From positions 7,999 through 71,998 of the IMG/VR virus record IMGVR_UViG_3300032247_001802: a stretch of DNA of 64,000 nt; one strand, 5' to 3'. The stretch comes from a virus (Duplodnaviria; Caudoviricetes). Below the pieces are notes generated by a model. The model made no database searches, was not told the origin of the DNA, and saw nothing but the letters and a program-made list of their open reading frames with translations. Position 1 is the first letter of the stretch; each line of letters opens with the position of its first letter. This document shows, in pieces, positions 4,345 through 63,583 of this stretch. A program made the translations under genes and the position numbers.

Positions 4345-7300
4345 ATGGCTAGGACTTCAGCTACAATTTCAGTAGGTGCAGATACAAGGCAGCTCGAAAG
4401 AGATATTCAGAGCGCGCTATCTCGTGATTTTAAATTCAAAGGATTTAATGAAAAAGCCTTTACTCAACCTTTAGGACGAATCACTGGTGCTGCAAATGAA
4501 TTTCAAAAATCATTAGATGCATCAAATGCTCGCGTTATTGCATTCGGTGCTAGTGCAGGTTTAATATATACTGTAGAAAAAGCATTTACTTCATTAGTTA
4601 AAAGTACTATAGATGTTCAAAAATCATTAACTGATATTAATGTTATATTAAATGTTAGCACAAAAACTTTAGATCAATTTGGAAATAGTTTGTTTGATAT
4701 TGCTAAAAATACAGGTCAAACTTTTGATGTTGTTGCTCAAGCTGCAACTGAACTTTCTCGTCAAGGTTTAGGATTAGAAGAGACTTTAAAAAGAACTCAA
4801 GATGCATTAATATTAACTCGTCTTAGTGGGCTTGATACTGTAAGTGCCGTAGAAGCTCTTACTGCTACAATTAATAGTTTTAATAAAGCTGGATTAGATT
4901 CAACAGTTATTATTAATAAATTAGCGAATGTTGATGCAGCTTTTGCTGTTAGTAGTGGTGATCTCGCAGAAGCTATTAAACGAGTAGGATCATCTGCGTC
5001 TGATGCAGGAGTTGATTTTGATCAATTGTTAGCAATTGTTACTAGTGTTCAGCAAACTACTGCTAGAGGTGGAGCAGTAATCGGTAATTCTTTAAAGACT
5101 ATTTTTACAAGAATACAAAGAACAGATACTCTGGATCAATTAGAGCAAATAGGAATTAAAGTAAGAGATTTAGAAGGAAATACATTACCAGCAATTCAAG
5201 TATTATCTAATCTTTCTAATACATTTAATCAATTGGGTGATTCACAAAGAGCTCAAGTAGCAGAAACTGTTGGTGGCGTATTTCAAATTAATATTTTAAG
5301 GGCAGCATTAGCAGATCTAGGTAAAGAATATTCTGTTTATGATAGAGCTTTACAAACAGCAAGTAATAGTACTGATCAAGCTATTCAAAGAAATGAAGCC
5401 TTAAATCAAACCCTTTCATCTTTAATTAATCAAACATTTCAAAATTTAACTCGTATTTCTTCAGATATTGGAAAAATAAGCTTAGGACCAACATTTAAAG
5501 GTACTTTAGAATTATTGAATAAAGGATTAGAATCTTTATCTACTGATAGTGAGAGTGTTGGTGGTAAAATTGGTAAAGGAATATTAGAAGGAATTGGAAC
5601 ATTCATCAGTGGTCCAGGGGTCATTTTACTAACCGCAGTATTTGGTAAATTGTTATTAAATTTAGGAAAATTTGCTAGTCAATCTTTACAAACACTTTTA
5701 AATATAAATAGCCAAGCAGAACAAAGAATTCAAATTCAAGCAAAGATAAATGAAGTTCTTGCCCAAGAACCAGGATTAGTCGCTGCAATATATAGTAAAC
5801 AAATTAGTGTTTTAGAGTTAGAAAATAGAATTTTAGATGTTATAAAACTTCAAACATTAGAAAGAGAAAGAGCTGCAACTATATCAACTGCTATTGCTGG
5901 TAATTTAGCTACTCGCGGAGTAACATCTAAGGGCGGATCATTAAAAGCAAAAAGTGCTGGATTCATTCCTAATTTTAGTGCTGCTGAAATTTATGGTGCA
6001 TTAGCTGGAGGATATATGCCAGGAAATATTCGAAAAATGAATATTCCAGGTCAAGGAAATATTACCTATAATAGCGCAGAAACAGTCAAGAATTTTCCAG
6101 GAATGACTCAACCAGCTATTATGCCACCTCAAGGCAGTAAAGCTGGAAAAAATTATCAAAAACAATTTTCTAGCGCTCATGGATTTAATCCTTATATGAG
6201 TAAAGGTTTTATCCCAAATTTTGCAGAAGGAAGAGCAGATGCAGTTAGGTTAGCCGCCCAACGACCTGGAGGATTAAAAAGAATTCCAGGAACTCAAAAA
6301 TTTAAATATGGAGTAGATTCGGCAGGAAACGATTTAACTATATCTGAATCTGAAAAAAATGACATTTTAAGCAGATCTCCCAAAGGTCAAAGAGCAGCGC
6401 GAGCAGCAGGAATTAAACCAGTAGATGCTAGTAATATTGCAAGTGTATTATTACCATTCGTAGGATCTAAAAGAATATTACCTGGACCATATTCACCAAA
6501 AGGTAAATCTGATAAATTTGCAATTAAAAATGTTCCAGTCTATGGAATTAATAGCAAAAAAGTAGAGGGAGATACTTCTGATGATAAGGCAAGATTAGGC
6601 ACAAATATAACTAATAGCATTATAGATGACGTATATAATTTTATAGATACATTAAAACCTTTAGGACAAACTGTAAGTAAAGCAGATTTAAGCCTACGGT
6701 TTCAACGTTCTGGAGAAAAAGGAGCATATGGAGCAGTTCGTGGCGCAGTTGGTTCTGCTTTTGAAGTTGGAATAAAAACAGCATTAGGATATACCGCACA
6801 AGAAACACCAAAAGATTTTGGAGATTTTGATGTTAGAGGAGGAAGAAATTTAATACATTTGCAAAAACTTTTTGGTTTTACAACACCTCTTGCAGATTTT
6901 AAAAGTGGATTATCTGAAGGTAATTTACAAAGTTTTGCAAATAAAGTTTATAGAGAAGAAGGAGCTTTACTTGGGGCAGGAAAATTTTCTACAGCTAAAG
7001 GTAAAAAAGCTTTTGGTGGATTTGTTCCTAATTTTACAGCATTAGATAATGCGATTGGAAGAGAGGTCGCAGCTGGAACATCCACTTCTAGAATAAGAAT
7101 TGGTAAAGACGCAAGATTAACATCTTCTGCAAATCCACTTGGTTTAGGAGTTTATAATACTAAAGATGAACCTAGAGGTCTTGGTCAAGGCATTCAAAGA
7201 TATGGATCAAAAGCTAAAACCGCAGGAGCAGCAGCTGGATTTATTCCTAATTTTGCAGGATTATCATATAATCCTGGAGGTTTAGGCGCACTTGATCCAA

Positions 7301-10300
7301 CAGTTGCAAATAGAGAAGTTGGTGCAGCATTTGGAAAAACATTAGCTCAATTAAAAAAACAAGAAATTACATTACAACAAGCTAATATGAATCTTCAAAA
7401 ATTAAGCGCTGATTATGGATTAACTGCAAACAGTCAAAATAGATTTAATCAAATTCTTCAAAGCAGAGCAACTAAATATGCAGAGAGCGCAAAAAATGCT
7501 GCTCTTGCGCTAGATAAATCTAAAACAACTTTTGAAACCATCAGCAAATATGGTTTAGCATTATCTATAGCTTTGCCAATCGCTACTCAAACAGTAAGTC
7601 AATTTAATGAAAAAAATAAAAAAGCACAAGTTGCTTTAGATGCATTTGGTACATTCTTAAGTATTACTGCTGCTGGTTCATTACTTGGAGCGCCTGGAGC
7701 AATAGTAGCAGGAGGAATTGGCGCGGGAATAGCAACTGCTCAGGTTTTCAAAGGATTGAAAGATATTAAACTTGCAGGTCTTGAGCAAGATTTGCAAGTT
7801 GTAGTTGATAGATATAATGACACTTCAACATCTTTAACTAAAGTTTTACCATTATTAGAAAAATATAAAGAAATTCAATCTTCAAGTTTACCAGATATTC
7901 AAAAAACAGAAGCTTTAGCGGATATTCAAAATCAACTTACTGAAAACTTAAGTAAAGCTGGTCCAGCGATTGTAGAAGGTGTCACACAAGCTTTAGCAAA
8001 ACAAGACTGGACTCAAGCAGCATACAATATAAATAAAGGCGTAACACAAGCTGGAGCAGAAGCAACGAATGAAGGTATAACAACATTATTTAAAAAATTA
8101 CAAGTAGAAGGAGAAGTGGCAAAAGGTAATAAAGTTTTAGCTTCAGGAATTGCCAAAGGAGTCACTGGGTTAGTAACTTCTTCTGGAAGAAATATTATTC
8201 AAGAATTTGCTAGTAAACCAGAAAATCTTCCAATACTAGAAAATACATCAAAAGATTTATATAGATTATTAACTGCAAGAGGAAAACTCGAAAAGGGTCA
8301 ATCTTTAAATAGAACAAAGATACAAGAACTTAGTTATAACCTAAGCGCAGAAAACCCTGAGCTTCAAAGACAAGTCGCAAAAGATATCGAAGAGACAGAT
8401 ATTTTATTGAAAACAAATTTACAAAATATTTTAAAAACAATTCAGCCATTGTATCAAGCTACAGAAGAAACTAGAGCTAAATTTGAAGAATTATCTATGC
8501 GAGCAAGTGGAGTAGGAGCAGGCACAGAAGAAGCTGATATAATAATTAAAGATATAAAACAATACATAGATAGCACCAGAAAAACTGCAAAAAAAATTGA
8601 TTATGCCTTAAAAACAGATGGAATAAAAGATGTTGCAACGTATATTGCTGCTTTTAAAAGTGGAAAATTAAATGCAAAAGATGCTCAAAAATATTATAAA
8701 GAATTTATATTTGCAAATCAAGACCCAATGGATGTTTTAGCTAAAAATCAAGATGCTTTAAATATGAGTGTTCAAACTACATTTTTAACTCGAAGCAGTC
8801 AAGATAAAGTAATAGAGCAATTAACAGTAGAAGAAGATAAACTAAGACAAAAACTAACAAATAGACAAATAACAGAAGACCAATATAATAAAGCTCTTGA
8901 AGGATTAAAAGATAAAATAATTCTTGAACAAAGAAAGCGAGGAACAATTTTTGCAGAAGATTTTAGAAGTGGAAGACAGCAAACTAGAGAAGCAAATGCG
9001 TTAGCTAATGAAACAAAATTATCAGATTTTGCTGGAGCATTTTTTGATGAATTTGATAATAGTGCTGCTGATTCATTTAGACAAGCTCAACTAGGCGCTA
9101 AAGATACTGCTAATACAATTAAAAGTGAATTCAATAATGCCTTCTTATCTTTTGCTAATGGAACAGCTACAGCTAGTGATGCTTTCACAAAAATGGCTCT
9201 TAATATTAGTGACAAAATACAACAATTGGCTATTGAATTTAGTACAAATCAAGTTTTTGGTGCGCTTTTTGGTACTACTAGTAATGTATTTGGTAAAGTA
9301 GGTGGAGGTGGTGGAGGTATTGGAGACTTTTTTAGTTCTTTGTTCAAATCAAAAGGTGGAATTATTAAAGGTTATTCCACAGGAGGACATGTTCTTGGCG
9401 GATCAGGAAATAAAGATGATGTTCCAGCTATGTTAAGCGGTGGAGAATATGTTATAAGAAAAAATGCAGTTAAAAAATATGGTCCAGAATATTTGCAAAT
9501 GTTAAATGAAGGAAAAGTTGGAAAACACTTTGATGGAGGAGCTTTTGGCCAGATGAGTGGTGGGGTCACTGGGACCTTAACGATAGCTAACCTTGGGCCT
9601 CAGCACGATCCAACCTCTAGTAGCTATATAGGTCCGAGATCATTTTTTGCAGCTCCTCTTGTAGCGGGCATGAACAGAAGAGAAAATAATTATTTTAAAT
9701 ACGGTGGAAGAGTCCAAAGATTCGCAGCTGGAGGAGAAACTTCGTATCTTGGAACAAATGTTTATAGATATAACGATCCTCTTTACCCAACCGCTGGACA
9801 AGAACTTTTTAGTTCAAATTTAAGTGGGCGAGCTGTTACTGATCCAAATAATCCTCAAAATAGAATTAGGCAAGATAGAGAAAAAGCGTTATATGATTAT
9901 TTGAATTATGTTGAAGGAGTTAGATTAGAAAATGAAAGAGCATTACAAGAAAATATAGCTCTAAATAAAAAAATTCAAGATGAATACAATCAACAAAAAA
10001 GTGCAAAAAGTAGAGGCGCATGGATGAGCTTCGGTTTTGGTCTTCTTGGAGCAGGAGCAAGTCAATTTTCATCAATGGGAGGATTTGGAGGACTTGGAGG
10101 AGCAGGTGAAAAAGCATCTAATCAAGTTGGTTTGAGATCACCTTATGTTTCTCCATCTCTTGGTACATCTCCAGCGCCAAATCCATCTGCAAGACTAAAA
10201 GTAGGTAAAGCTATGGGAGGATATATTAGAGGTTTTGCAAATGGTGGGTCAAGTGGTAAAGATGATATTCCAGCTCTTTTAATGGGCGGTGAATTTGTAA

Positions 10301-10653
10301 TGAGAAAAGAAGCGGTTAATATGTATGGTAAAAAATTCTTTGATGATCTTAATTCTGGAAGAGCAAGAAAATTTGCAGAAGGTGGATCAGTTGGTAACGA
10401 TAATACAGGAAACTCAAGCAATTATTCTCCAACTAATAATATCAATGTAACAGTTAACTTAAATCAAGAAAAAATAGTATCAGAAAATAAAGATGAAAAT
10501 TCATCTGTAAATACAAATGAAGATAGAAAATTAGAAAATGAAAGAACAAAACAATTAGCGAAAAAAGTTAGAGATCAGGTTCTTCAAGTAATCACCGAAC
10601 AGCAAAGACCAGGCGGATTATTAGGTTCTAATATGTATAGCAAAAGATCATAA
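4345..10653 (+). CDS. Tail tape measure protein (TP901-like N-terminal domain)
   Basis: 2102 aa; N-terminal A/T/L-rich TP901-type region (TELSRQG, LANVDAAFAV, VIGNSLKTIFTRI), G/A-rich hydrophobic segments, C-terminal D(V/I)PA(M/L)LxGGE(Y/F)V repeats. Confidence 0.92.
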   Translation: MARTSATISVGADTRQLERDIQSALSRDFKFKGFNEKAFTQPLGRITGAANEFQKSLDASNARVIAFGASAGLIYTVEKAFTSLVKSTIDVQKSLTDINVILNVSTKTLDQFGNSLFDIAKNTGQTFDVVAQAATELSRQGLGLEETLKRTQDALILTRLSGLDTVSAVEALTATINSFNKAGLDSTVIINKLANVDAAFAVSSGDLAEAIKRVGSSASDAGVDFDQLLAIVTSVQQTTARGGAVIGNSLKTIFTRIQRTDTLDQLEQIGIKVRDLEGNTLPAIQVLSNLSNTFNQLGDSQRAQVAETVGGVFQINILRAALADLGKEYSVYDRALQTASNSTDQAIQRNEALNQTLSSLINQTFQNLTRISSDIGKISLGPTFKGTLELLNKGLESLSTDSESVGGKIGKGILEGIGTFISGPGVILLTAVFGKLLLNLGKFASQSLQTLLNINSQAEQRIQIQAKINEVLAQEPGLVAAIYSKQISVLELENRILDVIKLQTLERERAATISTAIAGNLATRGVTSKGGSLKAKSAGFIPNFSAAEIYGALAGGYMPGNIRKMNIPGQGNITYNSAETVKNFPGMTQPAIMPPQGSKAGKNYQKQFSSAHGFNPYMSKGFIPNFAEGRADAVRLAAQRPGGLKRIPGTQKFKYGVDSAGNDLTISESEKNDILSRSPKGQRAARAAGIKPVDASNIASVLLPFVGSKRILPGPYSPKGKSDKFAIKNVPVYGINSKKVEGDTSDDKARLGTNITNSIIDDVYNFIDTLKPLGQTVSKADLSLRFQRSGEKGAYGAVRGAVGSAFEVGIKTALGYTAQETPKDFGDFDVRGGRNLIHLQKLFGFTTPLADFKSGLSEGNLQSFANKVYREEGALLGAGKFSTAKGKKAFGGFVPNFTALDNAIGREVAAGTSTSRIRIGKDARLTSSANPLGLGVYNTKDEPRGLGQGIQRYGSKAKTAGAAAGFIPNFAGLSYNPGGLGALDPTVANREVGAAFGKTLAQLKKQEITLQQANMNLQKLSADYGLTANSQNRFNQILQSRATKYAESAKNAALALDKSKTTFETISKYGLALSIALPIATQTVSQFNEKNKKAQVALDAFGTFLSITAAGSLLGAPGAIVAGGIGAGIATAQVFKGLKDIKLAGLEQDLQVVVDRYNDTSTSLTKVLPLLEKYKEIQSSSLPDIQKTEALADIQNQLTENLSKAGPAIVEGVTQALAKQDWTQAAYNINKGVTQAGAEATNEGITTLFKKLQVEGEVAKGNKVLASGIAKGVTGLVTSSGRNIIQEFASKPENLPILENTSKDLYRLLTARGKLEKGQSLNRTKIQELSYNLSAENPELQRQVAKDIEETDILLKTNLQNILKTIQPLYQATEETRAKFEELSMRASGVGAGTEEADIIIKDIKQYIDSTRKTAKKIDYALKTDGIKDVATYIAAFKSGKLNAKDAQKYYKEFIFANQDPMDVLAKNQDALNMSVQTTFLTRSSQDKVIEQLTVEEDKLRQKLTNRQITEDQYNKALEGLKDKIILEQRKRGTIFAEDFRSGRQQTREANALANETKLSDFAGAFFDEFDNSAADSFRQAQLGAKDTANTIKSEFNNAFLSFANGTATASDAFTKMALNISDKIQQLAIEFSTNQVFGALFGTTSNVFGKVGGGGGGIGDFFSSLFKSKGGIIKGYSTGGHVLGGSGNKDDVPAMLSGGEYVIRKNAVKKYGPEYLQMLNEGKVGKHFDGGAFGQMSGGVTGTLTIANLGPQHDPTSSSYIGPRSFFAAPLVAGMNRRENNYFKYGGRVQRFAAGGETSYLGTNVYRYNDPLYPTAGQELFSSNLSGRAVTDPNNPQNRIRQDREKALYDYLNYVEGVRLENERALQENIALNKKIQDEYNQQKSAKSRGAWMSFGFGLLGAGASQFSSMGGFGGLGGAGEKASNQVGLRSPYVSPSLGTSPAPNPSARLKVGKAMGGYIRGFANGGSSGKDDIPALLMGGEFVMRKEAVNMYGKKFFDDLNSGRARKFAEGGSVGNDNTGNSSNYSPTNNINVTVNLNQEKIVSENKDENSSVNTNEDRKLENERTKQLAKKVRDQVLQVITEQQRPGGLLGSNMYSKRS

Positions 10654-12065: not shown

Positions 12066-15000
12066 TTAGTATACATTGATTCCCGATGCAACTACAGTGA
12101 ATGAAGAAACTTGATTTAAAAGAGTATAAACGCCAGTCGCAGGACTAGACCTTTCTCCTATACTATTTTCTTCAAAAACTCTAAAATAATAACTACCAGT
12201 ATAAATTGGAGTAAAAAATGGCGGAAATACTGGTTTATAAATTGATTGTCCTTCATCATACCAATAAGTTATGCCAGTTCGCAAACCATTTAAAGAAAAA
12301 GTATTTAAAAGAGTAGATTGTGGAGTAGTTGTTCCAAAATTAACTCCAGAATTAACATATACATAATATAAACTATTGGAAGAAGGCGAAGTTAAGGTGG
12401 ATGGAATTATACTATAAATTATACTATTAATTCCACTTTGATTAGATGTATAGTGTCCTTTTGTGAAATCAGATGGATCTTTAAGGAAATTTCCACTAGA
12501 GTTTCTAAATAAGCCACTTAAATTTAATCTTGGAGTATTTGGTGCTGGAGGTCTATTGGGTACATTTATTAATGTAGCGACATTATCTATATCTTTAAAT
12601 TTATTTTCATTGTATTCTAGTGCATTTACATAAAAAATTGATGGTTCAGTTTCTGTAATATTTAATACTCTATATTTTTTAGGTTTATTCAAATAAGATT
12701 CAAGATAATATCCTGGATAAGCAGTATTTGTTGGATTGTTCATTTGAGATCTAGTATTAATTCCTGCAGTTGCATAACCAGTAGTACTTATATCTATGTT
12801 CCAAACTGTATTTTGTGGTAAATTATAGCCAGAATTATATAAAGTACTTGGAAAATTAATTCTTATATTATTAGCGTATATTCCAGATCCACTTGTTAAC
12901 CAATTTTGTGGATTATTTATTGTAATTGATTGTAATTGGCTTTTTCTAAAAAATGAACTATTTAATCCAGAAATTCCAGAAGAAGTTACCCCAGCGTTAC
13001 CTGTGGCATATGAGTCGCCAAGTTGAGTACCGAAATTTAAATTATAAGTTGGAGTTAATACATTGAATGTAAATGAATTTTGTCGATTAACTCCTGTAAT
13101 CGCATCTGTATTTGTGAAATTATATGGAAGATCTAACACTGCGTATCCAGTAGTTAATTCGACAGTTCTTCCTGCATAAGCTGTATTTTTTCTATATTGA
13201 TCATATATAGAAATAACATCTCCTGGTCTTAAATAATTACCTTCCAGACCTAATTTAAAATCTACAAGTTCTGTTTCATTATTTTGAGTTGTAAGAAGCC
13301 ATTTACCAACTCTTCTTGCTTGATTTTTACTTGTACAGCCGAATGCTACTATTTCTGTTTCTCTTATGCCAAATTTTAAAATTGAAGATTTATCTTCTAC
13401 ATATTCAATTCCAGGTTTATAATTATCTGTTTCGTCATTAAATCTAACTAAGGCTACAGTCTTTCTAGATTTTTTAGAAGCATCAGAATAATTAAATGAA
13501 CCATCTATTATATTACTATTATTAAAAAGATATATTGGATCTTTTGGAGAATCTTGAGTTAAAGTTATTTGTCCAGCCGAATAGTAAGTAATTGCTAAAA
13601 ATATACTAGCCATATCATTTAATACTTTATAAGCTTCTTCTTTTGTAGAAATATAAACATTGCATCTAAATCTTGGTTCTAAACCTCCAACTCCATCGGT
13701 AACTAATTGATCGCAATATTGAGCGATTTCATACAAGTTCCATTTATCTGCTAAATCTGCGTTTATATATTTACCTAAACCAAATCTATTGTTTGTTATT
13801 AAATCATAAAAACACCAAGCAGGATTATCTGTCCACGCAATTTTAAATTTTCCATTCCAAGGACCAGTATAAGTTTTAGCTATAGGATCATAATTAACTG
13901 GAATTTTAACTTTTAAAAGGTTCATCAAATAAGATCTTGTGGGCACTTCATTAAAATACCTTGCATCAAAATTTGAAAATACTAAAGCTGCATCTGGATA
14001 TACAAATCTATCAGAATAAACTTCAGTTATACTATGAACTTCAGTAGAACTACTTAATGAAGAGGTAGTGAACTCTCTGGATATTTTTGTAATATCTACT
14101 GCCCATCCTATTTGATTTGGAAATAAATTAAAAAATGGTTTATTTTCTGCAAAAGGCCTAAAAGCAATCTCATAAGTCCAAATAACTGGAGAATTAGCTA
14201 TTTTGCCTTCCATAGTTATAACATCACTTGACCAAAATCCAGGTAAAAATGGTGAATATTTTGAAGTATCTAAAAGAACAAGATTTCCATTATTTAATAT
14301 TCTATAAATTTGAAATCTTAATTGCAAAAATTGACGTTCTACATCTCCAGCATTTGAACCACTTACAATCTGTTCGTAAAGTGAATTAATTTTAATATTT
14401 ATTTTTAATGATGAAATTTCTGTATTATATACATAATAAGTTTTTGGAGTAGTAATTTGATTATTTCCACTTATAACATAATAACCATACAAAGTTTCAC
14501 CAATAGAAGTTGTAGTAGAAGTTTGTATTGGGTATTTATTTTTATCAACCTGTTTACCGAAATAATCTCTTCTATCTTCATAAAGATTCAAATATGGATT
14601 ATAAACTGTATGATCATTAGTTTTTTCTCCATATGTAAATCTATAATTTGCAGATTGAAAATTATAATAACCATGAAGATCTGAAATGGGAACATCATTC
14701 CAATATATTGATCTTGACTCTGGATTACTAAAAGTTGAACTAAATGGTTGGAATGTAACACTATTAAATCCAATACTTCCAGTAGTTTTTCCATCTAAAT
14801 TTGGAATATAAATTCCAGTAACAAAACCTTCAATTGGTCCTTCGCAAATTAAATCTAATATATTAATTTGAGAAATTGAATTAAATGCTGATTGATTTTT
14901 AATACTTCCATATGACGCTTCTGTTGCTGGATTACCATTAACTTTATAAATAGTCCTTAAATCGGGAGTATTAGGATCAACATCTTTATATACGATATAA

Positions 15001-15287
15001 TCTGTAAGAAAATTATTTGCTCGCCAATCATAATAATCAGAACCATTTAAGTTTGCTAATGGAGTATAATTTGATAAAAATCCACTTGGACCATACCCCC
15101 AAGCACTAACATTGCTGTTAGAATATGGTATTTGCGAACCACTAAAAGATAAAGATATCGAACCAGCTCCTCCGCCATCATCTTGTGCAGTACTTTCTGG
15201 AAAATTATAAGAAGCAAATCCATATCCTAACATTCCAGGAAATAAAAGATAAGCTAAACCATCTGCGTATTTATTTGAATTTCCCAT
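12066..15287 (-). CDS. Tail tip attachment / central fibre protein (lambda gpJ-like)
   Basis: LDLICEGPIEG, W(T)DNPAWCFYDLITNNRFGLG, EPRFRCN, FGCTSKNQARRVGKWLL and PGDVI motifs typical of gpJ. Confidence 0.88.
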   Translation of the reverse strand: MGNSNKYADGLAYLLFPGMLGYGFASYNFPESTAQDDGGGAGSISLSFSGSQIPYSNSNVSAWGYGPSGFLSNYTPLANLNGSDYYDWRANNFLTDYIVYKDVDPNTPDLRTIYKVNGNPATEASYGSIKNQSAFNSISQINILDLICEGPIEGFVTGIYIPNLDGKTTGSIGFNSVTFQPFSSTFSNPESRSIYWNDVPISDLHGYYNFQSANYRFTYGEKTNDHTVYNPYLNLYEDRRDYFGKQVDKNKYPIQTSTTTSIGETLYGYYVISGNNQITTPKTYYVYNTEISSLKINIKINSLYEQIVSGSNAGDVERQFLQLRFQIYRILNNGNLVLLDTSKYSPFLPGFWSSDVITMEGKIANSPVIWTYEIAFRPFAENKPFFNLFPNQIGWAVDITKISREFTTSSLSSSTEVHSITEVYSDRFVYPDAALVFSNFDARYFNEVPTRSYLMNLLKVKIPVNYDPIAKTYTGPWNGKFKIAWTDNPAWCFYDLITNNRFGLGKYINADLADKWNLYEIAQYCDQLVTDGVGGLEPRFRCNVYISTKEEAYKVLNDMASIFLAITYYSAGQITLTQDSPKDPIYLFNNSNIIDGSFNYSDASKKSRKTVALVRFNDETDNYKPGIEYVEDKSSILKFGIRETEIVAFGCTSKNQARRVGKWLLTTQNNETELVDFKLGLEGNYLRPGDVISIYDQYRKNTAYAGRTVELTTGYAVLDLPYNFTNTDAITGVNRQNSFTFNVLTPTYNLNFGTQLGDSYATGNAGVTSSGISGLNSSFFRKSQLQSITINNPQNWLTSGSGIYANNIRINFPSTLYNSGYNLPQNTVWNIDISTTGYATAGINTRSQMNNPTNTAYPGYYLESYLNKPKKYRVLNITETEPSIFYVNALEYNENKFKDIDNVATLINVPNRPPAPNTPRLNLSGLFRNSSGNFLKDPSDFTKGHYTSNQSGINSIIYSIIPSTLTSPSSNSLYYVYVNSGVNFGTTTPQSTLLNTFSLNGLRTGITYWYDEGQSIYKPVFPPFFTPIYTGSYYFRVFEENSIGERSSPATGVYTLLNQVSSFTVVASGINVY

Positions 15288-16763: not shown

Positions 16764-18128
16764 TTAAATTTGAGGTTTATTTGTTCCAGGAAAACCTCCA
16801 AATGGTAAAAATCCATTTAAATAATTTCCACTTGCATCTTTAGGTATGCCATGAGATTGTTCTGAAATTGGATTTTCGCATCCAGGTCTTCTTGGGAAAT
16901 AAACTGGTTGACCATTAACTCCAGTTAACCAGCTTGTATTAATATTATCTGCTGGGTATTGCCAATAAATTCTACGTTCTGTAGTTTGAAAATTTTCTCC
17001 ATTTCTATTAATTGGCCAAATAACAGGTCTAAAGGCAGGATTTTTTAACCATCTTAGTCTACATGCAGTTATGCTTTTAGAACAAGAGTCTGCTGTCCAA
17101 TAATTTGTATTCGGCGGAGAATTAAAAACATCTGATTTATTATTATTTATGCAAACATAATAAAATTTTAATCCTCTGTTTTGAAAGTAAACAAAATCTC
17201 CAGAAACATAATTAGCATTTTCTATCCAAAGTCCAGAATTGCCAAAGGTACCAGTTAATCTAAATATAGCAGTATTCGTAGCTGTTCCAGCTACGCCAGT
17301 AGCAAAAATTCCTCCAACAAATAATTGATCATTATCATTAGCTACTGGTGGAGCAGTTTGCAGACCTTTTACAGTAATTGGAGAATTTTCTATATTGGCA
17401 TAAATTCCGCTATGTAAATATGTTAATCTACTGTTGTATTCATAACAACATCCTTCTCCTCTATATTGAAATGGACATTTTTTTGCTAAAATTGTTCTTC
17501 CTGGAAGCGTTAAATTTTCTACATCTAAAATTGTATTTAATTGATATTCTATTACGGATTGATTTTCTGTAGTTTTTCTATCTATATAATATATATCTCT
17601 AGGTAATTCTATTTCATAAATTCCAGTATTTGTTGCAAATATATTATATCCTTCAGAAAAATTTGCACCATCTAAATATTTTAAAAAAGTTTTAATTCTT
17701 GTAAATTTACCACCGACAATATCACCTAATGATTGCATTTGCATTCTAATATAAGAATAAAAAGAATTTACTGAGTAATCTGGAGATAAATTAGATATCG
17801 AAACTTTTGGAGTTGGTAATGTTCCAGCGGAACTATATTCAAATCCTTCAGCAAATATAGGGAATGGATAATAAAAATTATTTTGCCATTTGATTCTTCC
17901 ATATGAATCTGATGTTATTTTATATAAATTATAATCATTATAAACGCGTAGAAGTCCACGATTCATAGGTTGTTTTCCGTCATAGTCAAAATTTATTGTA
18001 GAAGGAGAAACTTCAGATAGATCTATTTCATAAAGTTGAACTAAAGAAGATGGAGTTAATGAACTTATTTCTGTATTAATATCTAAACTACCGCTTATTA
18101 CTGTATTAAAAGTTGAAGGTGTTAGCAT
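16764..18128 (-). CDS. Minor tail protein (lambda gpL-like)
   Basis: LYEID, PFPIFAEGFEYS..G.LPTPKVSISN, RIKTFLKYLD..NF, YYIDRK, LP.R....CPFQYRGEGC, C-terminal CSK...CRLR and LPFGGFPG. Confidence 0.88.
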   Translation of the reverse strand: MLTPSTFNTVISGSLDINTEISSLTPSSLVQLYEIDLSEVSPSTINFDYDGKQPMNRGLLRVYNDYNLYKITSDSYGRIKWQNNFYYPFPIFAEGFEYSSAGTLPTPKVSISNLSPDYSVNSFYSYIRMQMQSLGDIVGGKFTRIKTFLKYLDGANFSEGYNIFATNTGIYEIELPRDIYYIDRKTTENQSVIEYQLNTILDVENLTLPGRTILAKKCPFQYRGEGCCYEYNSRLTYLHSGIYANIENSPITVKGLQTAPPVANDNDQLFVGGIFATGVAGTATNTAIFRLTGTFGNSGLWIENANYVSGDFVYFQNRGLKFYYVCINNNKSDVFNSPPNTNYWTADSCSKSITACRLRWLKNPAFRPVIWPINRNGENFQTTERRIYWQYPADNINTSWLTGVNGQPVYFPRRPGCENPISEQSHGIPKDASGNYLNGFLPFGGFPGTNKPQI

Positions 18129-49530: not shown

Positions 49531-49551
49531 GAAATTTAATAAAAAGTAACT

Positions 49552-49938
49552 TGGACGCGAAAGGAGTTGAACCTTTGTCTTTTAAAAATTTAAATTAAAA
49601 TCCTACAAGTTTAGTCGCTTTTATTTTAGCCTTGTATTGATAAGCAACAACATACTTTGGCGATCTTATTTTTAATACTTAATATCAATAGAATAAACAA
49701 ACTATAAATAATAAGACATCTAATTACGCAACTATCCAATAGATGTGTCAAGGTAGTCACGCTGTAGAACTTAAGCTACAGAAACAGTCAACTCAACAAG
49801 AGAAGCTCTTGCGGAGATATGACCTTTATATTTTGCTGTTTTGGCAGTTAATATAAGTGAAACTTTTTAAGGAGTCCTCGGTTCAACCTCCACTTGCATT
49901 TTAATTGTAATCTCTAAAATCGAAACCAGTACGCGCCC
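49552..49938 (-). ncRNA. ssrA: tmRNA (transfer-messenger RNA)
   Basis: 5' GGGCGCGTACTGGTTTCGA; 3' GGTTCAACTCC T-arm and CGCGTCC-A; G3.U70 alanine pair; internal tag ORF 49845..49771 after TAACT; CCA not encoded. Confidence 0.93.
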
Positions 49939-49967: not shown

Positions 49968-50177
49968 TTATAAAGCTTTTAATAATCTTTGGCAATCTTT
50001 TTTATAAACAAAATTAAATTTGATTCTTGATCCATTAATATCTGAAATTAATTGAGGTATGGCAATACATGGATATTCACTTGGTCGATCATAAATATTC
50101 TCATTAGAGATATTGTAATGCTTTACGCATTTATATGAGTAAACTGTCCATCTAGCTTTATTTTTTATAATCTTCAT
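49968..50177 (-). CDS. Hypothetical protein (69 aa)
   Basis: ATG-initiated ORF with TATAAT 9 nt upstream. Confidence 0.55.
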   Translation of the reverse strand: MKIIKNKARWTVYSYKCVKHYNISNENIYDRPSEYPCIAIPQLISDINGSRIKFNFVYKKDCQRLLKAL

Positions 50178-50199: not shown

Positions 50200-50228
50200 T
50201 TGACAAAGGTTTAAAATTAAAATATTAT
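50200..50228 (+). promoter_or_regulatory. Near-consensus sigma70 promoter TTGACA-17-TATTAT
   Basis: Direct reading; predicted +1 about 50235; no protein gene follows on this strand. Confidence 0.75.
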
Positions 50229-50234
50229 ATAAGT

Positions 50235-50460
50235 ACATAGTTCCCAATTAGAGCAGTTTGTTGATGTCAAAAAATCAACTATCAATCCCTGAGATAGCAA
50301 TGTCATAAGGGCTGACAACTATTAAAACCTTCATTTGTACATTATATGGCTAAAGAAGGAAATGTAGCTATAGGCATCGCAGAATGTAGTGATCGAAGCT
50401 ACCTCTGATCCATAAGTGCGATGGCCCGTTTACTGCTGAAATCGCGGTAAAATTTGGAGT
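50235..50460 (+). ncRNA. Candidate structured non-coding RNA of unknown family
   Basis: Promoter upstream, no substantial ORF, elevated G+C, at least six helices found by eye including a GCAA tetraloop and a 5'/3' closing stem. Confidence 0.6.
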
Positions 50461-50561
50461 CAAAAGAAAAGTTGGATTGATAATACTTAACTTTAGATAT
50501 AATAAATCTGGAGGTAAAGCCCTTTTGGATATCAAAGAAAAGTTATAAATAAAGAAAAGAA

Positions 50562-50891
50562 CTATTTCTTCATTAAATGATTCTGTATTATATCAAAATT
50601 ACGATCTAGTTTAGTTTCTATTCTGTCAAAGTAATCATCAAAAGATTCTTTAGTAACATAAGTTGTGCTGATTTTTAATGCTAAATCTGATATTTCTTGT
50701 TGATGTTTTCTACTATCTGCTTCCATTTCTTTTCTTAAAGCTATGAAATCATGGAAAGTCTTATCGTTAATTTCTTTCATAAGATTTTCTTGTTTGTCAA
50801 AAAGAGAGAATACTCTAGTAAACAACCATCCACCCAAAAAGGATAGAGCGCCCAATATTAAATTAAATAATACTGTAATATCTAAATTCAC
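50562..50891 (-). CDS. Small N-terminally anchored membrane protein with coiled coil (holin/XhlA-like architecture)
   Basis: One TM helix (LFNLILGALSFLGGWLF) then coiled coil ending RIETKLD; late motif upstream. Confidence 0.45.
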   Translation of the reverse strand: MNLDITVLFNLILGALSFLGGWLFTRVFSLFDKQENLMKEINDKTFHDFIALRKEMEADSRKHQQEISDLALKISTTYVTKESFDDYFDRIETKLDRNFDIIQNHLMKK

Positions 50892-50961: not shown

Positions 50962-51954
50962 TTAAATGTTCTCTTTATTTCCAGAGAAAATTACTTCTAC
51001 ATAGTCGTTTGTATTATGAATTATATAGGATTTTATAAAACATTGCATAGCTTGTAGTGTGTTAAATTTGTGTAAATTATTATTTTGATATAACTTGTAA
51101 GTATGAATTTTATCTAGAATATCACATTTATTAATAATAAGTTTTGTTACGCCAGAAATCCTAACTGCATCAATTAGTTTATTTAAATTCAGCCAATTAA
51201 CTATTCTTTTTCTACCAGTTGTAGAACCAAATTCTTGACCAATTTCTATAAGCATATTTAATTCATCATCTTGCCAAAGAGTTTCTGGAAAAAACGGATC
51301 TACCCCACTTTTAGTGTCATAAATTTTTGCCACCCCAATAATATCTTTAATTTTTTTAGGTGAAAATCCTAAAGAGCAAGCAGAATAAGGAAGAGTTTCG
51401 CTACTTGTGACATATGGATAATCTCCATAATTTAAATCTAACCAAAAACTTTGAGCACCTTCGCATAGTACGTTTCCATAAAGCTCTCCATCCCAAAGAT
51501 ATTCTTTATCTAAATAGTCTTTAGCAAGTTTGCCAACCCTTAATGCTTTATCTGCATAACATGGAGCAATACCTTGACCAGTTGTACCAAGTTTTGATTT
51601 TAAAAATTTCAGATCATATTGAATATGTTTTTCAGTAATAATATGAGCTTTTGGACTTACTTTGATTAATGATGAATTAAATCCTCCGCTTTTAAGATAA
51701 TCTATTTCATCAAAAAATTTATCAATGTTAATAACGCAATTTGGACCAATAATACTAAGTTTATTTTGAAAAACTCCGCAAGGAATAATATGAGTTTTAT
51801 ATTTTTTATCATTGATATAAACTGTATGACCTGCATTGGGACCACCATTCCAACGGCAAACAATATCATAATTCTTACTAATAGCATTACTTATTTTTCC
51901 TTTTCCTTCGTCTCCCCAAGCTAATCCAAAGATAATATCTACTGAATTTATCAT
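50962..51954 (-). CDS. purA: Adenylosuccinate synthetase (short form)
   Basis: WGDEGKGK, NGGPNAGHT, GTTGQGIAP.Y.DK, EGAQ...LD...G.YPYVTSS, G.TTGRKR. Confidence 0.93.
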   Translation of the reverse strand: MINSVDIIFGLAWGDEGKGKISNAISKNYDIVCRWNGGPNAGHTVYINDKKYKTHIIPCGVFQNKLSIIGPNCVINIDKFFDEIDYLKSGGFNSSLIKVSPKAHIITEKHIQYDLKFLKSKLGTTGQGIAPCYADKALRVGKLAKDYLDKEYLWDGELYGNVLCEGAQSFWLDLNYGDYPYVTSSETLPYSACSLGFSPKKIKDIIGVAKIYDTKSGVDPFFPETLWQDDELNMLIEIGQEFGSTTGRKRIVNWLNLNKLIDAVRISGVTKLIINKCDILDKIHTYKLYQNNNLHKFNTLQAMQCFIKSYIIHNTNDYVEVIFSGNKENI

Positions 51955-53417: not shown

Positions 53418-54527
53418 TTATTTTCCATGAGCAAATCCCTCATACATGCTATTTGGGCTATTTCTAACAGCTTGTATAGTATTATTCCATAGACCACCAC
53501 GCATATCTTCTACATTTCTAAATCCAAGATAACTCATAGAACTTCTTAAACCATTAGTAAAATCATAAACAATATCTTCTATAGTTTTATTTTCAATAAT
53601 TGGAATTAAAGTATTATCTCCTTCTACGAATAGATTCTTTTTAGTTCCATCGTATAGATCATAATCTTCAACAACATCTTGACTTGCCATGCCTCTATAT
53701 TTAGCGAATCTCTTACCATCTATTTCAATGATATTTTCATCATCAACAACATCAAATAGTCCAGCAAAAATTCTACCACAAATAACAGCATCACATCCAC
53801 TAGCAATAGCTTTAACTAAATCTTTTGGATATCTAATTCCACCATCAGCAAGAATACTTGGTCTATGAGAAGGATTAGGTTTATCTTGTTTAAATAAATC
53901 AATTTGAGAAAGTTCCCAATTTCTTACAGCTTTCCAAGCGTAATAATTTCCAGTTAAACTTGGACATCCAATTCCAGTTTTAACTTGGGTTAAGCACATA
54001 GAACCTGGACCAATCAAATGCCTAAAACCATCGGCTTTAAGATTAGCAAGCCTATAAACACTTTCTTTTGTTAATGTATTACCTACTATAACATCTTGGG
54101 AAAATCCAGCCGTCTTATACCATCTAAGAAAATCTTCAACATTTTTAGCTAAACCATTAGCAGTATCCAAAAAATAAACATTAGTAAATGTACTGGTAGC
54201 TCTAATTCTTTCTTCTGCGTCTTTTAGACCAATAGCAGTAATGCAAAAATCACTTGCATCTTTAATAAGTTTAGCTTTAGATCTTTGATCATCAACAGAC
54301 ATGAATCTGTGCAAAACTCCAGCAGCACCAAGTTTATTCATCTTGATACACGACTTAACAGAAGATACCGTGTCCATTGGAGAAAGGATAATTGGAATTT
54401 TTATATTGCAATTTCTTGATATCTTGGTAGTGGTATCTACTTCTTTTCTAGAAGTGATGTCTGAAAAATTTGGCAGTAACGAAATATCATCGTAACTTAA
54501 AGCTTCTTTAAATTCTTGTTTTTGCAT
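53418..54527 (-). CDS. guaC: IMPDH/GMP reductase family enzyme, GMP reductase-like
   Basis: LSYDDI.LLP, SPMDTV, IGPGSMCLTQVKTG.G.P, ADGGIR, YRGMAS, GLRS.MSY.G; no CBS domain and no flap Arg-Tyr dyad. GuaB is not excluded. Confidence 0.7.
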   Translation of the reverse strand: MQKQEFKEALSYDDISLLPNFSDITSRKEVDTTTKISRNCNIKIPIILSPMDTVSSVKSCIKMNKLGAAGVLHRFMSVDDQRSKAKLIKDASDFCITAIGLKDAEERIRATSTFTNVYFLDTANGLAKNVEDFLRWYKTAGFSQDVIVGNTLTKESVYRLANLKADGFRHLIGPGSMCLTQVKTGIGCPSLTGNYYAWKAVRNWELSQIDLFKQDKPNPSHRPSILADGGIRYPKDLVKAIASGCDAVICGRIFAGLFDVVDDENIIEIDGKRFAKYRGMASQDVVEDYDLYDGTKKNLFVEGDNTLIPIIENKTIEDIVYDFTNGLRSSMSYLGFRNVEDMRGGLWNNTIQAVRNSPNSMYEGFAHGK

Positions 54528-62161: not shown

Positions 62162-62162
62162 G

Positions 62163-62234
62163 AGCCAGAAATCGGATTCGAACCGATGACCTACGGTTTA
62201 CAAAACCGTTGCACTACCGCTGTGCTATTCTGGC
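62163..62234 (-). tRNA. tRNA-Thr(TGT)
   Basis: GCCAGAA/TTCTGGC acceptor, ACGGT-TTTGTAA-ACCGT anticodon arm, GGTTCGAATCC T-arm; no CCA. Confidence 0.95.
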
Positions 62235-63492: not shown

Positions 63493-63495
63493 ATT

Positions 63496-63582
63496 GGAAC
63501 GATGGCTGAGTGGTCTAAAGCAGAAGTTTACTAAACTTCCGATGGGTAATTCCATCCGTGGGTTCGAATCCTACTCGTTCCG
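63496..63582 (+). tRNA. tRNA-Ser(ACT), class II with long variable arm
   Basis: GGAACGA/TCGTTCC acceptor, G73, GAAGT-TTACTAA-ACTTC anticodon arm (ACT at 63530-63532), GATGG/CCATC variable stem, GGTTCGAATCC. Confidence 0.92.
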
Positions 63583-63583
63583 A

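What the first reader, a model, noticed from the sequence alone, without database searches (positions are those of the whole stretch)
50200..50460. Promoter-driven, multi-helix non-coding RNA of no recognisable family, divergent from the tmRNA
Seen: a near-consensus TTGACA-17-TATTAT promoter (50200-50228) fires into about 330 nt with no ORF over 20 codons and higher G+C than its flanks. Helices found by eye on the + strand: closing stem TCCCAATT 50242-49 / AATTTGGA 50451-58 (7 of 8 pairs); GTTGAT 50260-65 / ATCAAC 50274-79; CCCT 50287-90 / AGGG 50308-11 enclosing GATA-GCAA-TGTC (GNRA tetraloop); TATGGCTA 50345-52 / TAGCTATA 50365-72; CATCGCA 50375-81 / TGCGATG 50417-23 enclosing GTAGT-GATCGAA-GCTAC; TTACTGC 50430-36 / GCGGTAA 50444-50. 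Loop-to-strand complementarities (GTCA 50266-69 with TGAC 50313-16; GAAGG 50355-59 with CCTTC 50328-32) suggest pseudoknots. Several G.U pairs and the GNRA loop favour a + strand RNA. The RNase P, SRP and hammerhead signatures I know are absent. Inference: a phage structured RNA (ribozyme, RNA polymerase or ribosome decoy, or anti-defence RNA) clustered with the tmRNA.
Basis: partly seen in the sequence, partly recalled or inferred. Interest (0 to 1): 0.78.

Follow-up and report, generated by a model that had tools for sequence, protein, structure and literature searches.

The report
New knotted RNA gene, lake phages
The gene-free gap beside this uncultured lake phage's tmRNA is a separately transcribed gene for a 311-base, pseudoknotted non-coding RNA. 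It matches no catalogued RNA family, is kept more constant than the tmRNA, and displays two identical single-stranded tracts, but its job is still unknown.

Summary
The gap holds a real RNA gene, window 50235-50545 (+ strand, about 311 nt).

- **Promoter:** TTGACA-17-TAnnAT sits at a fixed distance in every relative, while its spacer varies.
- **Relatives:** 60 distinct copies from lake-phage contigs form two lineages.
- **Fold:** eleven helices keep pairing through compensatory changes. A long-range helix (50280-88/50474-82) is crossed by a loop-to-3'-tail helix (50307-13/50518-24), which makes a true pseudoknot.
four of his ten hold through compensatory changes. Two are unverified, and four fail: the closing stem, CCCT/AGGG, GATA/TGTC and GTCA/TGAC.
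- **Family:** no Rfam family matches either lineage.
- **Conservation:** the RNA is more conserved than the neighbouring tmRNA (91.6% against 84.2%). The link to the tmRNA is not conserved.
- **Twin tracts:** two 19-nt single-stranded tracts (50455-73 and 50526-44, NGGA..UCAAA(A)GAAAAGUU) are near-invariant. They changed in parallel at two positions.

Function is not shown. My best guess is a trans-acting scaffold that offers two identical landing sites to one host or phage factor, possibly ribosomal protein S1 or the 30S subunit. This scan had already noted the same RNA family on other genomes.

The parts
50200..50228 (+). Sigma-70-type promoter: -35 TTGACA 50200-05, 17-nt spacer, -10 TATTAT 50223-28. 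The likely start is near A50235.
   Evidence: 11 of 12 matches. The -35 is invariant, the spacer varies and the -10 is TAnnAT in 31 relatives. The same layout is kept in the second lineage.
50235..50545 (+). The RNA gene (about 311 nt), from ACAUAG to GAAAAGUUA
   Evidence: Conservation has sharp edges in alignments A2 and A3. The covariance model R1 matches full length in 71 loci. Lake metatranscriptome contigs cover 50253-50548.
50240..50254 (+). Hairpin Hd: GUUC 50240-43 / GAGC 50251-54
   Evidence: Five strand variants, all complementary. Also predicted independently by RNAalifold.
50260..50279 (+). Hairpin He: GUUGAU / AUCAAC, with the conserved loop GUCAAA
   Evidence: Compensatory A-U in three copies. 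It is rebuilt as GUGAGUU/AAUUCAC in L148.
50280..50288 (+). 5' strand of long-range helix Hc (UAUCAAUCC). It pairs with 50474-82.
   Evidence: Fourteen variants. Seven lineage-1 variants are all paired, and lineage 2 has an extended complementary helix.
50293..50323 (+). Stem-loop Hg: GAUAG 50293-97 / CUAUU 50319-23 and UGUC 50301-04 / GACA 50314-17. Its loop carries AAGGGCU.
   Evidence: U-A changes to C-G at 50301/50317 (33 against 27 copies). A-U changes to G-C at 50296/50320 between lineages.
50307..50313 (+). 5' strand of pseudoknot helix Hh (AAGGGCU, in the Hg loop). It pairs with 50518-24.
   Evidence: Five strand-pair variants. Four are fully complementary (AAGGGCU/AGCCCUU, GAAGGCU/AGCCUUC, AUAGGCU/AGCCUAU, GAGGGCU/AGCCCUU). 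The fifth (UCAGGCU/AGCCUGU) is complementary except for its outermost pair.
50328..50359 (+). Helix Hf: CCUUC 50328-32 / GAAGG 50355-59
   Evidence: C-G, A-U and U-A all occur at 50332/50355. It is replaced by GUUGU/ACAAC and UCAC/GUGA in lineage 2.
50375..50423 (+). Helix Hi (CAUCGCA 50375-81 / UGCGAUG 50417-23), enclosing the inner hairpin GAUC 50391-94 / GAUC 50407-10
   Evidence: Hi has seven variants, five fully paired and two with a mismatch only at an end pair. The inner hairpin has nine variants, all paired, including GGAA/UUCC, GGUA/UACC and GGUC/GACC.
50429..50451 (+). Hairpin Ha: UUUACUGC / GCGGUAAA, loop UGARAUC
   Evidence: Six of its eight pairs show changes on both sides. There are 21 variants.
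50455..50473 (+). Twin tract 1: UGGAG-UC-AAAAG-AAAAG-UU, single-stranded
   Evidence: GGAGU and AAAAGAAAAGU are invariant in 60 copies. No partner within the RNA is kept. The core has an unpaired probability of 0.79 when the proven helices are enforced.
50474..50482 (+). 3' strand of long-range helix Hc (GGAUUGAUA)
   Evidence: See the entry for 50280-88.
50491..50513 (+). Hairpin Hb: CUUUAGAU / AUCUGGAG
   Evidence: 23 variants. It is rebuilt as CUUGCAAA/UUUGCGAG and CUUAUAAA/UUUAUGAG in lineage 2.
50511..50524 (+). Near-invariant GAGGUAAAGCC, running into the 3' strand of Hh (AGCCCUU 50518-24)
   Evidence: AGGUAAAGCC 50512-21 is invariant in all 60 copies. The Hh pairing is covered above.
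50526..50544 (+). Twin tract 2: UGGAUAUC-AAAG-AAAAG-UU, the single-stranded 3' tail
   Evidence: GGAUAU and AAAGAAAAGUU are invariant. It changes in parallel with tract 1 at two positions: U to A before GGA in lineage 2, and C to U before AAA in L023, L102, L156 and L073.

Best explanation
Window 50235-50545 (+) is a stand-alone gene for a stable, about 311-nt non-coding RNA of a family not in Rfam, transcribed from its own sigma-70-type promoter.

The fold is shown by comparison. Two 5' hairpins are followed by a multi-branched core closed by a 9-bp long-range helix. A hairpin loop inside that core pairs with a strand near the 3' end, giving a pseudoknot.

On this scaffold sit two near-identical 19-nt single-stranded tracts (NGGA, 2-4 nt, UCAAA(A)GAAAAGUU). 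One lies just before the 3' strand of the closing helix. The other is the 3' tail.

The mechanism is inferred, not shown. The RNA acts in trans by offering these two identical tracts to one partner with two equivalent sites, or to two copies of one partner. The knotted core fixes their spacing and protects the RNA. The partner I think most likely is part of the host's translation-initiation machinery: ribosomal protein S1 or the 30S subunit, which bind single-stranded GGA plus A-rich leaders. That would make the RNA a decoy or competitor for mRNA leaders.

Odds for each part:
- Real structured RNA gene: about 0.95.
- New family relative to Rfam 15: about 0.9.
- Two-site trans binder of any kind: about 0.45.
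- S1/30S specifically: about 0.15-0.2.
For: **Gene and promoter**
- Promoter consensus.
- The hexamers and their spacing are conserved while the spacer varies, across both lineages.
- The conservation edges are sharp.

**Strand**
- 139 G.U cells against 9 A.C cells in the helices.

**Structure**
- 99.1% of cells are paired. 15 pairs changed on both sides, against 6.6 +/- 1.4 in shuffles (0 of 500 reach it) and 1-5 in slid controls.
- The compensations hold across lineages in every major helix, including the crossing pair Hc and Hh.

**Not coding**
- The 55-aa ORF on the - strand is frame-shifted or stopped in 25 of 60 copies, and variation shows no third-position bias.

**Constraint**
- Mean pairwise identity is 91.6% for the RNA and 84.2% for the adjacent tmRNA. 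The RNA is the more conserved in 53 of 55 genome pairs.

**Expression hint**
- Contigs from lake metatranscriptomes of four studies cover 50253-50548.

**Twin tracts**
- They are invariant over lineages that otherwise differ widely, and changed in parallel at two positions.
- They are predicted unpaired.
- No complementary site is enriched in four phage genomes.

**S1 lead**
- S1/RegB sites are 11-nt single strands with GGA at the 5' end followed by an A-rich run. GGA and A-rich motifs also mark other S1 ligands, including SELEX pseudoknots (PMC1702504).
- The phage uses few Shine-Dalgarno sites and has A/U-rich leaders.
Against: - No experiment or direct computation links the RNA to any partner.
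- The tracts fit the T4 RegB/S1 consensus GGAGRAYARAA poorly. Tract 1 has U, C and A at positions 5-7.
- No RegB gene is found in four related genomes, one of them complete.
- The parallel changes amount to two events only, so chance or shared descent is not excluded.
- No neighbouring protein gene travels with the RNA in all lineages.
- In the one run where both are seen, contig depth over the RNA (about 29) is far below that of the tmRNA pieces (hundreds to thousands). One contig reads through the 3' edge. Neither abundance nor a discrete 3' end is shown.
- No intrinsic terminator follows the gene.
- The near-total conservation of many junction nucleotides would suit a ribozyme or a ligand pocket as well as a scaffold.
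Confidence: 0.5

Rival explanations
1. Self-assembling architectural RNA, as GOLLD, ROOL and OLE turned out to be. Several copies would join into a symmetric RNA-only particle. The twin tracts, the palindromic GAUAUC (50528-33) or the conserved loops would serve as contacts between molecules.
For: - GOLLD, ROOL and OLE form homo-oligomers (PMC12286853).
- This is a large, ornate, highly conserved phage RNA with its own promoter, with tRNA genes 12 kb away in the window and a tmRNA next to it in this lineage.
- GAUAUC in tract 2 is self-complementary and near-invariant.
- RNAalifold proposes a pairing of 50261-68 with 50528-35 that competes with hairpin He and could instead form between molecules.
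Against: - At 311 nt it is much smaller than ROOL or GOLLD.
- There is no sequence or model similarity to them.
- No covariation supports any contact between molecules.
- Tract 1 is not palindromic.
- Oligomer formation cannot be tested with these tools.
Confidence: 0.15
2. Base-pairing guide or regulator. The twin tracts would be seeds that pair with a pyrimidine-rich host RNA (complement AACUUUUCUUUGA), such as a tRNA anticodon arm, an rRNA segment or an mRNA. Their parallel changes would track a change in that target.
For: - The tracts are single-stranded, invariant and identical.
- The C to U change in both tracts would keep pairing with a G through a wobble pair.
- AAAAG is complementary to CUUUU. 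From my own knowledge, that sequence occurs in tRNA-Lys(UUU) anticodon loops.
Against: - Complementary sites in four phage genomes are no more frequent than in the reversed-pattern control or in shuffles.
- The host is unknown, so no host target could be searched.
- The U to A change before GGA needs a matching change in the target, and none is known.
Confidence: 0.15
3. A ribozyme or RNA-processing RNA, for example a reduced RNase P-like enzyme for the phage's tRNAs and tmRNA, or a new self-cleaving or ligating RNA.
For: - Single-stranded junction nucleotides are very highly conserved (runs CAGUUU, GGCUGAC, AUUAAAA and AGGUAAAGCC).
- GAGGUAAAGCC paired with GGCU, directly after a hairpin, resembles the RNase P motif GAGGAAAGUCC/GGCU of helix P4 after P3 (resemblance recalled from my own knowledge).
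- The phage carries tRNA and tmRNA genes.
Against: - No RNase P model scores at all, at E<=10, in either lineage.
- The universally conserved bulged U of P4 is absent, and the ACAGAA motif is absent.
- The two strands come in the reverse order.
- Helices Hc and Hh cross, whereas P2 and P4 are nested. No circular permutation converts one topology into the other.
- There is no specificity domain.
Confidence: 0.08
4. A cis-acting element rather than a free RNA: a leader that controls nrdA-nrdB, or a DNA-level site such as a replication origin or packaging signal.
For: In the second lineage the RNA ends 116-137 nt upstream of nrdA on the same strand.
Against: - In this window and most of lineage 1 the next gene downstream is convergent, and nrdAB lies 8 kb away or is inverted.
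- Compensatory changes with many G.U pairs point to folded + strand RNA, not duplex DNA.
- The element has its own conserved promoter.
Confidence: 0.04

Closest known systems
ROOL (RF03087) and GOLLD (RF01998) RNAs
   Same: Large, ornate, highly conserved non-coding RNAs carried by phages and prophages, often near tRNA genes, promoter-driven, and of unknown biochemical function. GOLLD was first seen in lake metagenomes.
   Different: There is no sequence or covariance-model similarity. This RNA is about 311 nt, against roughly 580 and 800 nt. Homo-oligomer formation, shown for those RNAs (PMC12286853), is untested here. The twin single-stranded tracts have no described counterpart.
tmRNA (RF00023)
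   Same: A phage-borne stable RNA rich in pseudoknots, adjacent to and divergent from this gene in this window. It carries A-rich single-stranded stretches and is a known ligand of ribosomal protein S1.
   Different: This RNA has no tRNA-like domain, no tag reading frame that is conserved, and no model match. The adjacency is lost in the second lineage and in many relatives.
Bacterial RNase P RNA (RF00010, RF00011)
   Same: Similar size. A hairpin is followed by GAGG(U)AAAG and a strand that pairs at long range with GGCU, as in P3, J3/4 and P4.
   Different: There is no model match and no bulged U. The strand order is reversed, the topology is crossing rather than nested, and the other conserved regions are absent.
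Protein-titrating decoy RNAs (CsrB/RsmZ, 6S RNA) and S1 target sites (GGA plus A-rich single strand; PMC1702504)
   Same: It may work like them: repeated, exposed GGA-containing purine tracts on a structured carrier.
   Different: There are only two conserved sites, and they lie in single strands rather than hairpin loops. The fit to the RegB/S1 consensus is poor, no binding has been shown, and there is no homology.

Membership tests
Any Rfam 15 family (4227 models) | Covariance-model match at or near the gathering score | tested here: not met
   Nothing overlaps 50229-50550 at the gathering score. At E<=10 there are only noise hits of 12-14 bits against cut-offs of 40-60. The lineage-2 copy L137 gives a different set of noise hits.
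RNase P RNA | P4 helix with GAGGAAAGUCC (bulged U) paired to ACAGAA..GGCUUA | tested here: not met
   GAGGUAAAGCC 50511-21 pairs with GGCU 50310-13, but without a bulged U, without ACAGAA, and with the strands in reverse order (read).
RNase P RNA | Topology: P2 nested around P3 and P4 | tested here: not met
   Hc (50280-88/50474-82) and Hh (50307-13/50518-24) cross, and both are supported by compensatory changes. Nested helices cannot become crossing ones by circular permutation.
tmRNA | tRNA-like acceptor/T-arm domain and a tag reading frame with a resume codon | tested here: not met
   ARAGORN and Rfam find only the neighbouring tmRNA at 49551-49938. Indels in hairpin Hb shift the 29-codon open frame at 50459-50548 among copies (read from the alignment).
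ROOL / GOLLD | Match to RF03087 or RF01998 | tested here: not met
ROOL / GOLLD | RNA-only homo-oligomeric particle | not testable with these tools
   It needs native gels or cryo-EM (PMC12286853 describes the known cases).
RegB/S1 target site (T4) | 11-nt single strand GGAGRAYARAA | tested here: not met
   Tract 1 is GGAGUCAAAAG and departs from the consensus at positions 5, 6, 7 and 11. Tract 2 is GGAUAUCAAAG and departs at positions 4, 6 and 11. The consensus is from PMC1702504.
RegB/S1 target site (T4) | RegB endoribonuclease encoded by the phage | tested here: not met
   PF10715 has no match in G000, G001, G002 or the complete G009. No control genome matched either, so the sensitivity of the search is unproven.
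CsrB/RsmZ-type sponge | Many GGA motifs in hairpin loops | tested here: not met
   Only the two GGA motifs of the twin tracts are conserved across lineages, and both lie in single strands.

The most novel reading that the evidence does not exclude
The RNA is a new kind of phage weapon against, or shield for, the translation apparatus: a rigid knotted carrier that shows two copies of an mRNA-leader-like tract. It would capture ribosomal protein S1 or 30S subunits, or a host nuclease that attacks phage leaders. The two tracts would be kept identical because they serve one partner.
Probability: 0.15. Interest if true: 0.85.

Novelty: categorically new. Interest (0 to 1): 0.7.

Why it matters
Large, tightly conserved structured RNAs are rare, and almost every one that has been understood (ribosomal RNAs, RNase P, tmRNA, SRP RNA, riboswitches, 6S) does something fundamental.

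This one is widespread in uncultured lake phages and is held more constant than the tmRNA next to it. It has a proven long-range pseudoknot. It also carries an unusual and testable signature: two exposed tracts that evolution keeps identical.

Finding its partner would show a new way in which phages use RNA, rather than protein, to act on the host. It would also add a compact (311-nt) subject for RNA structural biology.

Tried and rejected
- **Rfam.** Searched at the gathering score and at E<=10 on the window and on a lineage-2 copy. Only noise came back.
- **Single-sequence folding.** Not better than shuffles on either strand.
- **Cultured phages.** BLASTN of the RNA and of 8 kb around it found no match. 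tblastn with the PurZ-like protein gave at most 40% identity and no host clue.
- **The 432-aa neighbour as bait.** No related loci were found.
- **Exact-pattern hits that were chance or artefact.**
  - L067, L087, L088, L099, L105, L106, L118 and L122 are chance matches in unrelated sequence.
  - The one CM hit among bacterial MAG contigs (L127/L138, Actinomycetota bin) is a contig end. Its last 130 nt or so equal the lineage-1 RNA, behind unrelated GC-rich sequence, so it is probably a chimera.
- **RegB link.** No PF10715 in four genomes.
- **Target of the twin tracts inside phage genomes.** No excess of complementary sites.
- **Does the base before GGA in the tracts follow the phages' own ribosome-binding sites?** Upstream of genes, UGGAG:AGGAG is 12:6 in lineage 1 and 3:6 in lineage 2. 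The numbers are too few to tell.
- **A partner protein gene travelling with the RNA.** None. The neighbourhood is mosaic.
- **Coding reading of the - strand 55-aa ORF.** Rejected.
- **Metatranscriptome contigs.**
  - Three contigs begin at 50253-55, but Logan contigs break at variable sites, so this is no start site.
  - Parts of the stretch without cover say nothing, and one contig runs on past 50548.
- **Supplement of the IMG/VR structured-RNA catalogue (PMC10690425).** It is not held, so I could not check whether this family is among its 10,000 unnamed candidates.
- **Parallel-stranded self-pairing of the two tracts.** Considered as a reason for their identity, and dropped. In the ungapped register the two C to U changes do not face each other.

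Full report
**What is in the window**

The window is part of a 72-kb IMG/VR virus record, estimated at about 48% complete. A tmRNA gene lies at 49551-49938 on the - strand (104 bits). A 69-codon ORF follows at 49968-50177 (-). On the + strand a promoter, TTGACA (50200-05), 17 nt, TATTAT (50223-28), is the best of nine promoter-like sites in the region.

From 50229 to 50560 no + strand ORF of 30 codons exists. G+C rises to 0.34-0.46, against 0.17-0.29 beside it. The next gene, 109 codons at 50562-50891, is convergent.

One sequence therefore proves nothing. Rfam finds no family here at the gathering score or at E<=10.

**Relatives**

A short adenylosuccinate-synthetase-like gene 400 nt downstream (50962-51954) was used as bait and brought in 63 related viral contigs. 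Six of them hold the stretch at 90-96% nucleotide identity, although their bait proteins are only 75-91% identical.

Three exact-pattern scans of viral contigs and one of metagenome contigs, followed by a covariance model (R1), gave 71 full-length matches. These are 60 distinct sequences.

Most belong to the window's lineage (312-411 bits). Seven form a second lineage (139-166 bits): L119, L120, L137, L148, L183, L203 and L250. That lineage was first reached by searching whole records of related phages that lacked the exact words.

All sources are lake or freshwater samples as far as they are labelled. Nothing similar is present among 50,697 deposited phage records.

**Borders and promoter**

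Conservation starts sharply at ACAUAG (50235) and ends at GAAAAGUUA (50545). Outside these edges the alignments fall apart.

The -35 hexamer is invariant, the 17-nt spacer is free to vary, and the -10 keeps the form TAnnAT. The distance to ACAUAG is fixed in both lineages. That is the pattern of a working promoter.

No intrinsic terminator follows, so the 3' end may be made by processing.

**Structure**

On 37 distinct lineage-1 sequences the structure I derived has these properties:

- 99.1% of cells are paired.
- 15 pairs changed on both sides. Column shuffles give 6.6 +/- 1.4 (0 of 500 reach 15).
- Sliding the 3' partners by 1-3 columns gives only 1-5 such pairs.

Across lineages the helices are rebuilt with different letters:

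| Helix | Window positions | Support |
|---|---|---|
| Hd | 50240-43 / 50251-54 | 5 variants, all paired |
| He | 50260-65 / 50274-79 | compensatory changes; rebuilt in L148 |
| Hc (long-range closing helix) | 50280-88 / 50474-82 | 14 variants |
| Hg, outer part | 50293-97 / 50319-23 | A-U changes to G-C between lineages |
| Hg, inner part | 50301-04 / 50314-17 | U-A in 33 copies, C-G in 27 |
| Hh (loop to 3' tail) | 50307-13 / 50518-24 | 5 variants; 4 fully complementary, 1 with an end mismatch |
| Hf | 50328-32 / 50355-59 | rebuilt in lineage 2 |
| Hi | 50375-81 / 50417-23 | 7 variants; 2 with an end mismatch |
| Inner hairpin | 50391-94 / 50407-10 | 9 variants, all paired |
| Ha | 50429-36 / 50444-51 | 21 variants |
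| Hb | 50491-98 / 50506-13 | 23 variants |

Hc and Hh cross each other, so the RNA contains a genuine long-range pseudoknot. RNAalifold recovers most of the nested helices on its own.

In these helices G.U cells outnumber A.C cells 139 to 9. This fixes the + strand as the folded one.

- Four are confirmed: He, Hf, Hi and Ha.
- Two are unverified. GUAGU/GCUAC is kept only in the main lineage. UAUGGCUA/UAGCUAUA shows uncompensated mismatches.
- Four are rejected: the closing stem, CCCU/AGGG, GAUA/UGUC and GUCA/UGAC.

**Not a protein gene**

The longest frame, 55 codons on the - strand, is shifted in length or interrupted in 25 of 60 copies. Variable columns are spread 20/16/23 over its codon positions.

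**Constraint and expression**

Among 11 genomes that carry both genes, the RNA is 91.6% identical on average and the tmRNA 84.2%. The RNA is the more conserved in 53 of 55 pairs.

Contigs assembled from lake metatranscriptomes of four independent studies lie on 50253-50548. This agrees with transcription but does not prove it. Such libraries can hold DNA, the flanks are too diverged to serve as a silent control, and one contig reads on past the 3' edge. In the single run where both are seen, the tmRNA pieces have far greater depth than the RNA.

**The twin tracts**

Two 19-nt stretches are alike: 50455-73 (UGGAG UC AAAAG AAAAG UU) and 50526-44 (UGGAUAUC AAAG AAAAG UU). Each follows an 8-bp hairpin with a 7-nt loop.

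Their cores are invariant in all 60 copies, while the helices around them are rewritten. No partner for them is kept inside the RNA. With the proven helices enforced, their cores are predicted about 80% unpaired.

They differ among phages at two positions, and each time both tracts carry the same change. The base before GGA is U in lineage 1 and A in lineage 2. The C before AAA is U in L023, L102, L156 and L073.

These are only two events, but they point to one partner that reads both tracts. Other invariant single-stranded runs are CAGUUU, GGCUGAC, AUUAAAA and AGGUAAAGCC.

**Context**

The tmRNA adjacency is not a rule:

- In lineage 2 the RNA sits between an unknown 343-363-codon gene and nrdA-nrdB, 116-137 nt upstream of nrdA on the same strand. 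The tmRNA of those genomes lies near the PurZ-like gene, 10-20 kb away.
- Many relatives have a tmRNA with no copy of the RNA beside it.
- Three related records, 57-70% complete, have no copy at all.
- No protein gene accompanies the RNA everywhere.

The window encodes a lambda-J-like tail tip protein, a minor tail protein, a DnaB-type helicase, a DNA polymerase and NrdAB. I could not confirm the label 'T4-like' that earlier notes of this scan gave to carriers of this RNA.

**What it does**

Nothing here shows the function. The anatomy is a rigid knotted core, two identical exposed tracts, and extreme conservation without a dedicated protein gene. That best fits an RNA that acts in trans on a conserved host component through the tracts.

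Single strands that begin with GGA and continue A-rich are the ligand type described for ribosomal protein S1, with and without the T4 nuclease RegB (PMC1702504). The phage's own genes have mostly A/U-rich leaders and few Shine-Dalgarno sites. I therefore rank an S1/30S decoy first among specific ideas.

The odds are low, for three reasons:

- The tracts fit the T4 consensus poorly.
- No RegB is encoded.
- Nothing was measured.

The rivals are an RNA-only assembly like GOLLD and ROOL (PMC12286853), a base-pairing guide for a host RNA, and a ribozyme. No target of the tracts is enriched in the phage genomes.

The RNase P idea deserves a word. The motif GAGGUAAAGCC paired with GGCU behind a hairpin looks like P3/J3-4/P4. 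But the models do not score, the bulged U and ACAGAA are missing, the strand order is reversed, and the crossing topology cannot be derived from the nested one of RNase P.

**Novelty**

The family is absent from Rfam 15. I could not check the unnamed candidates of the IMG/VR survey PMC10690425, because its supplement is not held. Earlier agents of this scan described the same family on other genomes and reached a similar view. I re-derived the gene, the fold, the parallel change of the tracts and the rejection of RNase P independently here.

- the second lineage's nrdAB context;
- the loss of the tmRNA linkage;
- the extension of helix Hg;
- the demotion of two supposed pseudoknot stems;
- the negative RegB and target searches.

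Noticed in passing
window 49551-49938 (-), promoter 49995-49967: A phage-borne one-piece tmRNA (Rfam 104 bits) with its own TTGCCA-17-TATAAT promoter. ARAGORN reads the tag as AKTAKYKGHISARASLVELTVSVA. Pieces of it reach contig depths in the hundreds to thousands in one lake metatranscriptome.
   Followed up: partly
window 50962-51954 (-) and 53418-54527 (-): A short (330 aa) adenylosuccinate-synthetase-like gene (PF00709; PHROG 1211, the PurZ-type family) lies near an IMPDH/GMP-reductase-family gene. This may be purine salvage or a modified-base pathway. The closest cultured-phage relatives are at most 40% identical.
   Followed up: partly
window 63495-63583 (+): ARAGORN calls a tRNA-Ser with anticodon ACU, an unusual unmodified-A wobble anticodon, next to tRNA-Asn(GUU). 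A tRNA-Thr(UGU) lies at 62162-62234.
   Followed up: no
L138 1529-1757 (contig end of an Actinomycetota MAG, RGER01000055.1): The last 130 nt or so of this 9.5-kb GC-rich contig equal the 3' half of the lineage-1 RNA, while the sequence before it is unrelated. It is probably an assembly chimera and not evidence for a host.
   Followed up: partly
window, upstream of several genes (list): The few clear ribosome-binding sites read UGGAGAAUAAC or UGGAGAAAAAA. That is close to the T4 RegB/S1 site GGAGAAUAAAA (PMC1702504), although no RegB gene was found in four related genomes.
   Followed up: partly
loci L002-L064 around the PurZ-like gene: Gene order around the PurZ-like gene, the GMP-reductase-like gene, tmRNA, the 109-aa gene and nrdAB is highly mosaic among otherwise close phages. 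The tmRNA occupies at least three different positions relative to the PurZ-like gene.
   Followed up: partly
window 4345-10653 (+): A single 2102-codon ORF lies beside tail genes: a lambda-J-like protein at 12066-15287 and a minor tail protein at 16764-18128. It was not examined.
   Followed up: no
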